A stretch of DNA of 4,752 bases. It comes from a virus (lineage: Duplodnaviria; Heunggongvirae; Uroviricota; Caudoviricetes). The stretch lies in the IMG/VR virus record IMGVR_UViG_2700989165_000008; one strand, written 5' to 3'. Positions 1 to 3,000 of the stretch are shown here, piece by piece. Position numbers: made by a program. The first letter of the stretch is position 1. Every line of letters begins with the position of its first letter.

Positions 1-3000
1 TTGTTCTGAGGTGAGCATATCACCTCTGTTCAGGTGGCCAAATTCAGTGTGCCACTTCAATGGCTGCTTAAAAAAAGAACAAATGGTAGTGTCCGCTATT
101 GCCAGTACACCTCAGGGTGTTTGTCCACACCAAACCTGCCTACCGAAGCGACGGAATAAAAACAGCAGCGGTAAGGAAGATGAGAACCGACAGCAACAAG
201 GCATGGAAGGGAGCGTTAAAGCGGGCAGGCATTAGCAACTTCCGCTTCCATGACCTGAGGCATACCTGGGCAAGCTGGCTGGTTCAGTCCGGTGTCTCTC
301 TTCTTGCGCTTAAAGAGATGGGAGGATGGGAAACTCTCGAAATGGTTCAAAGATACGCCCACCTTTCAGCCGGGCATCTCACCGAGCACGCGAGCAAAAT
401 CGATGCGATTATAAGTCGCAATGGCACAAATACGGCACAAGAGGAGAACGTAGTTTACTTAAATGCGAGGTAACTTATTGATTTAAATGGTGCCGATAAT
501 AGGAGTCGAACCTACGACCTTCGCATTACGAATTATAAGAATCCGCTTGTAATTCAAAGGATTATCCCATCAACACTGCGCTCACACGTCCCACCACATC
601 AAAACATGTAAAGCCTTGCAAGCCATTGTGAGGCCTTATGTGTCTCAGTTTTGTCTCATCAGACATAGCAAGTATCGATCAATTGAGACTTGGATGATAG
701 ACTTCATGCCTTTCAGAGCTCATTGATTAAATAAATGTTAAAGTTATTTGTAAAGTACACATCTATAGGTGTGCTGAACACACTTATACACTGGGTGGTT
801 TTTGGTGTATGTATCTATACCGCACATACCAGTCAGGCTCTGGCAAACTTCACAGGTTTCGTAGTGGCTGTGAGCTTTAGCTTCTTCGCGAATGCAAGAT
901 TCACATTCAAAGCATCGACTACAGCGATGCGCTACATGTTATACGTGGGATTTATGGGAATATTGAGTGTGATTGTTGGTTGGGCAGCTGATAAATGCTC
1001 ACTTCCTCCAATAGTCACTCTTATCACCTTCTCCGCCATCAGTCTGGTGTGCGGTTTCGTCTATTCAAAGTTCATTGTCTTTAGGGATGCGAAATGAAAA
1101 TATCTCTTGTCGTTCCTGTCTTCAATGAAGAAGAAGCGATACCTGTTTTCTATAAAACGGTACGTGAATTCCAAGAGTTGAAGCCATATGAAGTAGAAAT
1201 TGTATTCATAAATGACGGAAGTAAAGATGCCACAGAGTCAATTATTAACGCGCTGGCTGTTTCAGACCCGCTAGTTGTTCCGCTGTCATTTACACGCAAC
1301 TTTGGTAAAGAACCAGCCTTATTTGCAGGGTTAGACCATGCAAGCGGCGATGCTGTAATTCCTATTGATGTCGACCTGCAAGACCCAATTGAGGTTATCC
1401 CTCATCTTATTGAAAAGTGGCAGGCAGGTGCTGAGATGGTGCTTGCTAAACGTTCAGACCGCTCAACTGATGGACGACTGAAACGTAAGACAGCTGAGTG
1501 GTTCTATAAATTACACAACAAAATAAGCACCCCAAAGATCGAGGAAAATGTCGGAGATTTTCGACTCATGTCTCGTGAGGTTGTGGAGAACATTAAACTG
1601 TTGCCTGAGCGCAATCTTTTCATGAAAGGCATACTGAGCTGGGTGGGTGGTCAGACGGATGTCGTTGAATATGTACGCGCAGAGCGTGTTGCTGGCATCT
1701 CAAAATTTAATGGCTGGAAATTATGGAATCTGGCACTGGAAGGTATCACAAGTTTTTCAACCTTTCCTCTTCGCGTATGGACTTATATAGGCTTGTTTGT
1801 TGCAAGCATTTCATTTTTATATGGTGCATGGATGATTATAGACACCCTTGTCTTTGGTAACCCAGTACGCGGGTATCCCTCCCTGCTTGTATCAATACTT
1901 TTCTTGGGTGGAGTGCAACTGATCGGGATTGGTGTTCTCGGTGAATATATAGGTAGAATTTACTTAGAAACAAAATCAAGACCTAAGTATATTTTGAAGA
2001 AAGGTAGAAAATAACCATGAGCATATGTATTAAACAATCAGCATTAAAAATATTATTGGCTTTATCAGCACTCCTAATAACTTGGTTGACTACCAGATAC
2101 TTTCCAGTTGAACCGGATGTTGCTAACAGCCCAATTGTATGGAGGCATATTTTAGAGAATGGTATATCATCAATCCACGACTGGAAACCAACCGTGGATA
2201 ATTGGTATTTCACCGTTTACCCAATTAACTTTTTATTTTATATGCTGTTAGGTGATGATGGCTTAGTAGCATTAAGATTATCAACTGCAGTTTTCTCTAT
2301 TGCTATAGTAATAGCAGCGATGTTAACGCTACGTAAGGCATTCGGGTTTACCCCTGCTTTATTTTCTATTATACTTCTATCTCTAATACCATATTTTTCA
2401 TACACTTATGGTTTTGTATCACATCCTTTTTCTCATAATTCAACAAACGCTTTCGGCTTTTTATGCTTGCTTATATCTGTTTTCAACATACAGTATAAAA
2501 ATATATTTATCACTCTCCTCTTAAGTTTGACAGCATTATTTTCCAGCGTATCCGATCCGTGGTTTACAGCTGCATTTTTTATTCCACTATTAATATCTTA
2601 CTTTTTATTCTCTGTATGGGATAAAAAATTATTTAAGCATACTGCATTAATACTATTTGCATGTTTAATCTCTCTTTCCAATGTATTGCAAAATCTACTT
2701 AACATACCTCCCCACCAATTTGAAATTGTATCACTCAATGATATGATTTTAAATGCAAAATGGTGCATTCTGTTAATAGGAAAAAGTCTTAATTTATTAG
2801 TTGTCGACAATAACGCAACATCTTACGCCTCATTTGTCATTTGGTTCATTGCCATTATTACATCTGCGTGGTTTGTTTTATCGGACAATAAAAAAAACAC
2901 ATACCGTATTTATATTGTGTTATTTTCATTATTATCTATCGCAGGTATTGTCTCATCATTCATACTGAGCTATAAATCCCCTGATTATATTAGCATGCGT

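What the first reader, a model, noticed from the sequence alone, without database searches (positions are those of the whole stretch)
474..734. attP-like (unsplit) arrangement: int - 46-nt tRNA-Thr core - gtrA contiguous
In a single integrated prophage the att core separates phage from host DNA. Here the core (488..533) has a phage integrase immediately on its CCA side and gtrA on the other side, which is the arrangement of phage attP (xis-int-attP-gtrABC in SfV/P22-type phages). The window therefore comes from a non-integrated phage genome, from tandem or successive integrations at the same tRNA (a new prophage's gtr end abutting an old prophage's int remnant), or from a rearranged relic. The disrupted int favours the remnant scenario.
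Basis: partly seen in the sequence, partly recalled or inferred. Interest (0 to 1): 0.5.

Follow-up and report, generated by a model that had tools for sequence, protein, structure and literature searches.

The report
Ordinary attR beside an old integrase relic
The "attP-like" int–core–gtrA arrangement is the right-hand junction (attR) of a mostly deleted SfI serotype-converting prophage in a Shigella flexneri chromosome, lying against an older IS600-truncated integrase relic; this kind of junction has already been described.

Summary
Window 488..533 is an exact 46-nt copy of the 3' end of tRNA-Thr(CGU) thrW and of the annotated SfI attP core. An integrase 3' fragment ends at 473 and gtrA starts at 735. 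No complete tRNA is present.

It is not an unsplit attP, because the two arms come from different phages. From 470 to 4695 the window is 99.9% SfI. The int fragment is only about 71% identical to SfI int, but 98.4-99.7% identical to SfX/HK75-type thrW integrases.

In complete S. flexneri chromosomes, the window lies 6.4 kb from a full thrW. That thrW carries a second core copy and an SfI-type int.

The same int relic, cut at the same base by IS600, also flanks gtrII, gtrX and gtrIV-like prophages. In one genome it lies directly against intact thrW-proA.

The four sites (SfI attP, resident thrW-int', attL, the window) fit one Int-mediated exchange, including a diagnostic flank SNP. Afterwards, about 33 kb of SfI was lost and an IS600 sits at the break.

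Tandem integration of SfI beside an X-type int was shown experimentally in 2011. Already known; low interest.

The parts
1..59 (-). Terminal 59 bp of an IS911 copy (inverted repeat end), abutting the IS600 fragment
   Evidence: 100% match to the end of a full IS element in L003/L005/L006. That element is annotated 'IS3-like element IS911 family transposase' in E. coli records at 98.7-99% identity.
60..114 (+). Last 55 bp of IS600 (right end). This insertion truncated the resident integrase.
   Evidence: Matches the right end of both IS600 copies in L003. Element named from PGAP annotation at 99.5% identity. The IS600|int' junction is identical across serotype backgrounds.
115..473 (+). int': 3' remnant (last 118 codons plus stop) of an SfX/HK75-type thrW integrase. 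It is a resident relic older than the gtrI prophage and non-functional.
   Evidence: 98.4-98.9% identical to int of SfX, HK75, mEpX2, HK542 and mEp213, and up to 99.7% to E. coli chromosomal ints. About 71% identical to SfI int. Pfam Phage_integrase profile positions 101-170/172 only. Aligns to the C-terminus of a 386-aa full-length homologue.
474..487 (.). Core-proximal flank on the CCA side. It is of resident (X-type) origin and carries the diagnostic base at 485 (A here, T in SfI attP and in attL).
   Evidence: Four-site comparison and alignment.
488..533 (-). 46-nt att core, equal to the 3' part of tRNA-Thr(CGU) thrW. It is the crossover region and here serves as the core of attR.
   Evidence: Exact match to the SfI attP core feature, to thrW and to the published 46-nt core (PMC3636060).
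534..734 (+). Phage arm from the core to gtrA (SfI/SfII type), containing two overlapping terminator-like hairpins at 613..647
   Evidence: 0 mismatches to SfI and to the 2457T gtrII locus, but diverged from the SfX arm (L017). Terminator-like sites found and no sigma-70 consensus.
735..1097 (+). gtrA (flippase-type GtrA family protein)
1094..2014 (+). gtrB (bactoprenol glucosyltransferase, GT2)
2017..3537 (+). gtrI (serotype 1-specific glucosyltransferase)
   Evidence: Lies within the 99.9% match to SfI and corresponds to the annotated gtrI CDS. The exact protein is present in many S. flexneri and some E. coli contigs.
3771..4274 (-). Tail fibre assembly gene of the SfI remnant
   Evidence: PF02413 Caudo_TAP.
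4183..4695 (-). Tail fibre gene fragment (SfI_0023 homologue), 5'-truncated by IS600
   Evidence: The SfI match ends at 4695, equal to SfI record position 17069.
4696..4752 (+). First 57 bp of a second IS600 copy in the same orientation. In complete chromosomes it separates the tail fibre fragment from the SfI-type int at attL.
   Evidence: There is no 3-bp target duplication around it (AAG versus TGG).

Best explanation
The junction is the attR of an SfI (gtrI) prophage that integrated by Int-mediated recombination into thrW of a Shigella flexneri chromosome. At that time the DNA just downstream of thrW was already the IS600-truncated 3' end of an older SfX/HK75-type integrase.

Strand exchange within the 46-nt core gave two products:
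- attL: complete thrW + SfI flank + SfI int.
- attR: gtrA-side SfI arm + core + resident flank + old int'.

attR imitates the int-attP-gtrA order of a free phage.

Later, 33,198 of the 38,389 bp of SfI were lost (from int nt 196, through the early, lysis and head genes, into the tail fibre gene). A single IS600 sits at the break. What remains is a 6.4-kb remnant: thrW, int'(SfI), IS600, tail-fibre', tfa, gtrI-gtrB-gtrA, core.

What is shown: the sequence relationships, the four att sites, and the shared IS600/int' junction. What is inferred: the order of events, and that the remnant cannot excise. The second inference rests on both integrases being truncated and no xis lying between the two cores.
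For: 1. Window 470..4695 is 99.9% identical to SfI. Window 115..473 is about 71% identical to SfI int, but 98.4-99.7% identical to X-type integrases.
2. The window maps at 99.96% into complete chromosomes L003/L005/L006/L008/L012. There a full tRNA-Thr(CGU) with a second, directly oriented exact core lies 6,455 bp away next to proA/proB. That thrW is adjoined by an int that is 98.9% identical to SfI int over 1,029 bp.
3. Four-site comparison: SfI attP = [SfI int..GATTTTAA]|core|[TATAAG..gtrA]. Resident site in L021 = [int'..GATTTAAA]|core|[rest of thrW]. attL = [SfI-type int..GATTTTAA]|core|[rest of thrW]. Window = [int'..GATTTAAA]|core|[TATAAG..gtrA]. attL and the window are the reciprocal products.
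4. The IS600|int' junction at window 114/115, and int' itself (0-2 mismatches in 359), are the same next to gtrI, gtrII (AE014073), gtrX and gtrIV-like prophages, and next to intact thrW-proA in L021. So int' predates these prophages and is separable from them.
5. Experimental precedent: SfI integrates at the attL of a resident SfX prophage. The resulting gtrIA-core-intX junction was sequenced, and its int-side flank (..AAGTTACCTCGCATTTAA) is the one in the window (PMC3306764).
6. The IS600 at 4696 has no target-site duplication, as expected after deletion or IS600 x IS600 recombination.
Against: - The window ends in IS sequence on both sides, so the thrW/attL context comes from near-identical complete chromosomes and not from the source molecule itself.
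- The window's left end (an IS911 end joined to 55 bp of IS600) is not reproduced exactly in any fetched locus, so the source strain differs at least there.
- The thrW-proximal int is 98.9%, not 99.9%, identical to the int of the sequenced SfI. It could therefore come from a slightly different SfI-like phage or from another SfI/SfII/SfV-type prophage.
- The order of events (relic first, SfI later, deletion last) is inferred.
Confidence: 0.9

Rival explanations
1. Genuine, never-recombined attP of a mosaic SfI-like phage that carried an X-type integrase. It would now be a relic that integrated elsewhere or was moved by IS-mediated rearrangement.
For: Serotype-converting phages are mosaic. Int-attP-gtrA is the standard phage order (PMC3636060). 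L021 holds a full-length X-type int contiguous with an identical core and gtrA arm, so such a combination exists as contiguous DNA.
Against: The int fragment in the window carries the same IS600 truncation point, and is nearly identical in sequence (0-2 mismatches in 359), to the relic next to gtrII, gtrX and gtrIV-like prophages and next to intact thrW. A phage-borne int would not share one IS600 insertion event with all of these. The reciprocal product (thrW + SfI-type flank + SfI-type int) is present 6.4 kb away in the matching chromosomes. The full-length int in L021 is a different allele (6 mismatches in 373 aligned bp).
Confidence: 0.04
2. The window comes from a non-integrated (free or circular) phage genome.
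For: The gene order matches the SfI map from tail fibre to int.
Against: Both ends of the window are IS sequence (IS911/IS600 on the left, IS600 on the right). The int and tail fibre genes are truncated. The window maps at 99.96% inside bacterial chromosomes between IS600 copies. The int is not SfI's.
Confidence: 0.01
3. The attR/int' junction predates gtrI. On this view gtrI entered by homologous recombination (cassette exchange through the conserved gtrA-gtrB and tail fibre flanks) into an older SfII/SfV-type prophage remnant already at thrW, not by a fresh SfI integration.
For: The core-to-gtrA arm is identical between the gtrI and gtrII loci (0 mismatches over 488..734 in 2457T), and SfII matches 470..1962 at 99.5%. 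The thrW-proximal int is only 98.9% identical to the sequenced SfI int.
Against: The 99.9% identity to SfI runs uninterrupted from the core through gtrI, tfa and the tail fibre fragment. SfV reaches only 96.4% over 52% of the window. The IS600 insertion in the tail fibre region differs in position and orientation between gtrI strains and 2457T. Either way the junction is still an attR abutting the old relic, so this changes the history and not the identity of the feature.
Confidence: 0.05

Closest known systems
Junction between tandem SfI and SfX prophages in S. flexneri 036_1d (Sun et al. 2011, PMC3306764)
   Same: gtrIA arm, 46-nt core, X-type int flank, formed by SfI integrating into a thrW whose downstream neighbour is an X-type int. 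The printed int-side flank sequence matches the window.
   Different: In that strain the downstream element is a complete, inducible SfX. Here it is only the last 118 codons of an X-type int, cut by IS600, and a slightly different allele (98.4% to SfX int). Here the SfI prophage has also lost 86% of its genome.
attP of phage SfI (JX509734; Sun et al. 2013, PMC3636060)
   Same: Identical 46-nt core, identical 201-bp core-to-gtrA arm, same gene order.
   Different: The int-side arm and the int belong to another lineage (about 71% identity). The flank base at 485 differs. The int is truncated and there is no xis.
Chromosomal gtrI locus of serotype 1a strain Y53 (Adhikari et al. 1999, J Bacteriol 181:4711). 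The paper is not held in the library. It is cited in PMC3636060 as the source of the gtrI genes, flanking partial SfI sequence and the attR/attL core.
   Same: gtrA-gtrB-gtrI flanked by phage DNA and IS elements, forming a defective prophage. This description is from my memory of the abstract and from the citation.
   Different: I could not compare the sequences directly.
SfI-like prophages at thrW in E. coli (e.g. NZ_CP139337, L002)
   Same: Identical GtrI, the same core and arm, and an int 3' remnant of the same type beyond the core (window 419..487).
   Different: The E. coli remnant is only about 69 bp long and abuts yagP'/paoD. The prophage tail and head genes are retained on the stretch fetched.

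Membership tests
Phage attP (SfI/SfII/SfV/SfX-type, thrW-specific) | 46-nt core identical to the 3' end of thrW | tested here: met
   Exact match to the annotated SfI attP core and to thrW.
Phage attP (SfI/SfII/SfV/SfX-type, thrW-specific) | Both arms and the adjacent int belong to the same phage genome | tested here: not met
   The gtrA-side arm is 100% SfI. The int side is about 71% identical to SfI int and 98-99.7% to X-type ints.
Phage attP (SfI/SfII/SfV/SfX-type, thrW-specific) | Contiguous with intact int and xis in a phage or circular genome | tested here: not met
   The int is cut at 114/115 by IS600 and only 118 codons remain. There is no xis. The context is chromosomal.
Prophage attR at a tRNA gene | Partial tRNA 3' segment (the core) that duplicates the end of a complete tRNA gene at the other prophage end, in direct orientation | tested here: met
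   In L003/L005/L006/L012, the cores at 8472 and 14927 are on the same strand, and the second lies inside the full tRNA-Thr(CGU) at 14927..15002. This was shown in near-identical chromosomes, not within the window itself.
Prophage attR at a tRNA gene | Phage DNA on the inner side of the core | tested here: met
   99.9% SfI from the core to 4695.
Prophage attR at a tRNA gene | Sequence on the outer side of the core is resident DNA, found next to the intact tRNA when the prophage is absent | tested here: met
   In L021 the same IS600-int' relic is followed directly by complete thrW and proA.
Prophage attR at a tRNA gene | Reciprocal attL carries the phage's own int-side arm | tested here: met
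   L006 attL has the SfI-type flank (GATTTTAA) and an int 98.9% identical to SfI int.
Tandem prophage array at thrW (as in Sun 2011) | Newer prophage's modification-gene end, then core, then the older prophage's int | tested here: met
Tandem prophage array at thrW (as in Sun 2011) | Older element is a complete prophage | tested here: not met
   Only a 359-bp int fragment remains before IS600.
Excision-competent prophage | Intact int and xis available in cis | tested here: not met
   Both ints are 5'-truncated by IS600. No xis gene is called between the two cores. Excision itself is not testable with these tools.

The most novel reading that the evidence does not exclude
The hybrid site (SfI arm, core, X-type int-side arm) has the full arm-core-arm architecture of an attP while sitting in the chromosome. 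It might still be used as a substrate by integrases of incoming thrW phages. Recombination between the several core copies could then contribute, alongside IS600, to the inversions and reshuffling seen in the proA-yaiC region of different S. flexneri genomes. Core copies lie in inverted orientation in L013, L016 and L020.
Probability: 0.08. Interest if true: 0.3.

Novelty: already known. Interest (0 to 1): 0.08.

Why it matters
This matters little beyond correct annotation. The feature explains how the serotype 1 O-antigen glucosylation genes are held in the S. flexneri chromosome: in a remnant that has no intact integrase or excisionase and so probably cannot excise.

It also shows that in tandem or successive integrations at one tRNA, every internal junction imitates attP. 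Prophage-boundary callers and readers of draft contigs should keep this in mind.

The window is the typical IS600-bounded contig that carries gtrI in short-read assemblies. It should therefore not be taken as evidence of a free phage or of an unusual integration site.

Tried and rejected
- Complete tRNA at the site: none found by ARAGORN or by Rfam at E<=1.
- Free-phage origin: rejected because of the IS ends and the chromosomal mapping.
- SfI's own int: rejected at about 71% identity.
- My first guess from memory that window 1..58 was the end of the flanking IS600 was wrong. BLAST showed 1..59 is an IS911 end and 60..114 is the IS600 right end.
- Adhikari 1999 (PMC103612) and Stagg 2009 (PMC2795301) are not held, so the Y53 description rests on a citation and on memory.
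- The paper on oac1b in serotype 1b (PMC3630932) does not describe this junction.
- The simple sigma-70 scan found no promoter consensus in 400..800, so the gtrA promoter was not located.
- I did not use the capped large protein searches, structure prediction or collection scans. Annotated DNA matches settled the question.

Full report
**What is in the window.** Reading left to right:
- 1..59: the terminal 59 bp of an IS911 copy.
- 60..114: the last 55 bp of IS600.
- 115..473: the last 118 codons and stop of a tyrosine integrase. It matches Pfam Phage_integrase profile positions 101-170 of 172 only.
- 474..487: a 14-bp flank.
- 488..533: the 46-nt core.
- 534..734: a 201-bp arm.
- 735..1097 gtrA, 1094..2014 gtrB, 2017..3537 gtrI.
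- 3771..4274 (minus strand): a tail fibre assembly gene.
- Up to 4695 (minus strand): a 5'-truncated tail fibre gene.
- 4696..4752: the first 57 bp of a second IS600.

**Check of the observation.** The core is an exact 46/46 copy of the 3' part of tRNA-Thr(CGU) thrW, and identity stops at 534. It coincides with the 'attP core' feature of the SfI record and with the 46-nt core published for SfI (PMC3636060). ARAGORN and Rfam find no complete tRNA in the window. The int-core-gtrA order is therefore real and not a chance resemblance.

**The two sides of the core have different origins.** From 470 to 4695 the window is 99.9% identical to phage SfI, with 3 mismatches in 4,226 bp. The identity ends at the int stop codon.

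The int fragment is only about 71% identical to SfI int. It is 98.4-98.9% identical to the integrases of SfX, HK75, mEpX2, HK542 and mEp213, all thrW-integrating phages. It is up to 99.7% identical to E. coli chromosomal integrases.

**Genomic context.** The exact GtrI protein is encoded in several complete chromosomes. These have the S. flexneri gene order proB-proA-thrW and many IS600, IS911 and IS1 copies. The window maps to them at 99.96% from position 57 onward. In window orientation they read:

IS600 | int' (X-type) | core | gtrA gtrB gtrI | tfa, tail-fibre' | IS600 | int (SfI-type, lacking its first 195 nt) | thrW | proA proB.

- thrW is a complete tRNA-Thr(CGU). It contains a second exact core in the same orientation, 6,455 bp from the first.
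- The thrW-adjacent int is 98.9% identical to SfI int over 1,029 bp and about 71% identical to the window's int'.

**The int' relic is resident DNA.** I looked up the 97-aa ORF called on int' and compared the loci segment by segment. The same relic has the same IS600 junction at window 114/115 and 0-2 mismatches in 359 bp in each of these settings:
- next to the core and gtrA of gtrII prophages (including AE014073, which I know as S. flexneri 2a 2457T);
- next to a gtrX prophage (L017, where the outer side continues IS600, another IS, and a GGDEF gene in the position of yaiC);
- next to a gtrIV-like prophage (L019);
- in L021, directly against a complete thrW and proA.

One IS600 insertion event shared by all these backgrounds means the relic predates the serotype-converting prophages. 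It belongs to the chromosome side of the recombination.

**Four-site test.**
- SfI attP: [SfI int..GATTTTAA] | core | [TATAAGAATCC..gtrA]
- Resident site (L021): [int'..GATTTAAA] | core | [GCGCTGCTC.., the rest of thrW]
- attL (L006): [SfI-type int..GATTTTAA] | core | [rest of thrW]
- Window: [int'..GATTTAAA] | core | [TATAAGAATCC..gtrA]

The last two are the reciprocal products of one exchange within the core between the first two. The single diagnostic flank base (window 485) segregates as expected.

**Decay of the prophage.** The retained SfI segments end at record positions 17069 (tail fibre gene) and 22259 (int nt 196). So 33,198 of 38,389 bp are missing, with a single IS600 at the break. 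That IS600 has no 3-bp target duplication (AAG on one side, TGG on the other). This is what deletion or IS600 x IS600 recombination would leave.

Both integrases are truncated, and no xis lies between the two cores. I therefore infer that the gtrI cassette cannot excise. This was not tested.

**Comparison with the literature.**
- Sun et al. 2011 (PMC3306764) infected an SfX lysogen with SfI. They showed by PCR and sequencing that SfI integrates at the attL of SfX, upstream of it. The printed gtrIA-core-intX junction has the int-side flank found in the window (panel F). The PDF text carries some OCR noise, so I do not rely on single bases there.
- Sun et al. 2013 (PMC3636060) give the 46-nt core and the 261-bp gtrA-int interval of SfI. 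They cite Adhikari et al. 1999 for the gtrI genes, partial SfI flanks and attR/attL core of serotype 1a strain Y53. That paper is not held. From memory, it describes the gtrI cluster as flanked by phage DNA and multiple IS elements in a defective prophage.

**Verdict.** The feature is an ordinary, previously described kind of junction: the attR of a decayed SfI prophage abutting an older integrase relic. The label 'unsplit attP' and the free-phage option are not correct. Novelty: already known. Interest: low.

**Limits.**
- The window is bounded by IS sequence, so the link to thrW is taken from near-identical complete chromosomes.
- The window's exact IS911/IS600 joint is not reproduced in any fetched locus.
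- Of 1,671 collection blocks holding this GtrI, 1,244 have their longest contig at 2-5 kb. This fits the window being the usual IS600-bounded contig of draft assemblies.

Noticed in passing
window 1..114: An IS911 end (1..59) is joined directly to the last 55 bp of IS600 (60..114). In L005 an IS911 sits in the same IS600 but 30 bp further from its right end. In L003 and L006 the IS600 is intact. No fetched locus has the window's exact joint, so it is either a strain-specific IS911 insertion or an assembly artefact at a repeat.
   Followed up: partly
window as a whole; histogram: Of 1,671 collection blocks carrying this exact GtrI, 1,244 have their longest contig at 2-5 kb. The 4,752-bp window therefore looks like the standard contig that short-read assemblers produce between the two IS600 copies.
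   Followed up: partly
L021 5242..6663 (minus strand): A full-length (386 aa) X-type int lies contiguous with an exact core, an identical core-to-gtrA arm, and gtrA-gtrB-gtr(417 aa). It is inverted relative to thrW and separated from the thrW-adjacent relic by IS600. This is a second attP-like junction, this time with an intact int (6 mismatches to the window's int' over 373 aligned bp).
   Followed up: partly
L020 (AE014073) 3866..6550; L013 551..4489: Further int-core-acyltransferase (PF01757) arrangements, with an exact thrW core in inverted orientation relative to the gtrA-side core. In L013 the int is split by IS600. The proA-yaiC region holds several stacked, rearranged prophage remnants.
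   Followed up: no
L018 and L017 (both KN150717.1, about 40 kb apart): One scaffold carries a gtrII prophage end, core, and an X-type int with xis and P22-like early genes upstream (L018). It also carries gtrX, core, int' relic, IS600, another IS, and a GGDEF gene (L017). This appears to be a natural array of two prophages plus the relic at thrW.
   Followed up: partly
L002, L009-L011 (E. coli chromosomes), around the core: SfI-like prophages with identical GtrI, and with the baseplate, tail and (in L002) head genes retained on the fetched stretch, sit at thrW in E. coli. Beyond the core there are only about 69 bp of the same int type (window 419..487), then a truncated LysR gene (yagP-like) and paoD. 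In L004 the outer neighbour is instead a P4-type integrase of another island.
   Followed up: partly
window 3808..4005 (minus strand): Sub-threshold Rfam match to IS009 (43.2 bits against a gathering score of 117, E=9e-8), lying inside the tail fibre assembly gene.
   Followed up: no
window 2017..3537: gtrI is markedly AT-rich (GC about 0.30-0.35), compared with about 0.42-0.45 for gtrA/gtrB and about 0.51 for the window's first 400 bp, which hold the IS ends and most of int'. It has no Pfam match above threshold (PMT_2 at 16.7 bits against a cut-off of 26.1), although PGAP labels it glycosyltransferase family 39.
   Followed up: no
window 613..647: Two overlapping terminator-like hairpins lie between the core and gtrA (2 found against 0.2 expected). 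No sigma-70 consensus was found in 400..800. The SfII record annotates a 'terminator' within its match to window 470..1962. The gtrA promoter was not located.
   Followed up: no
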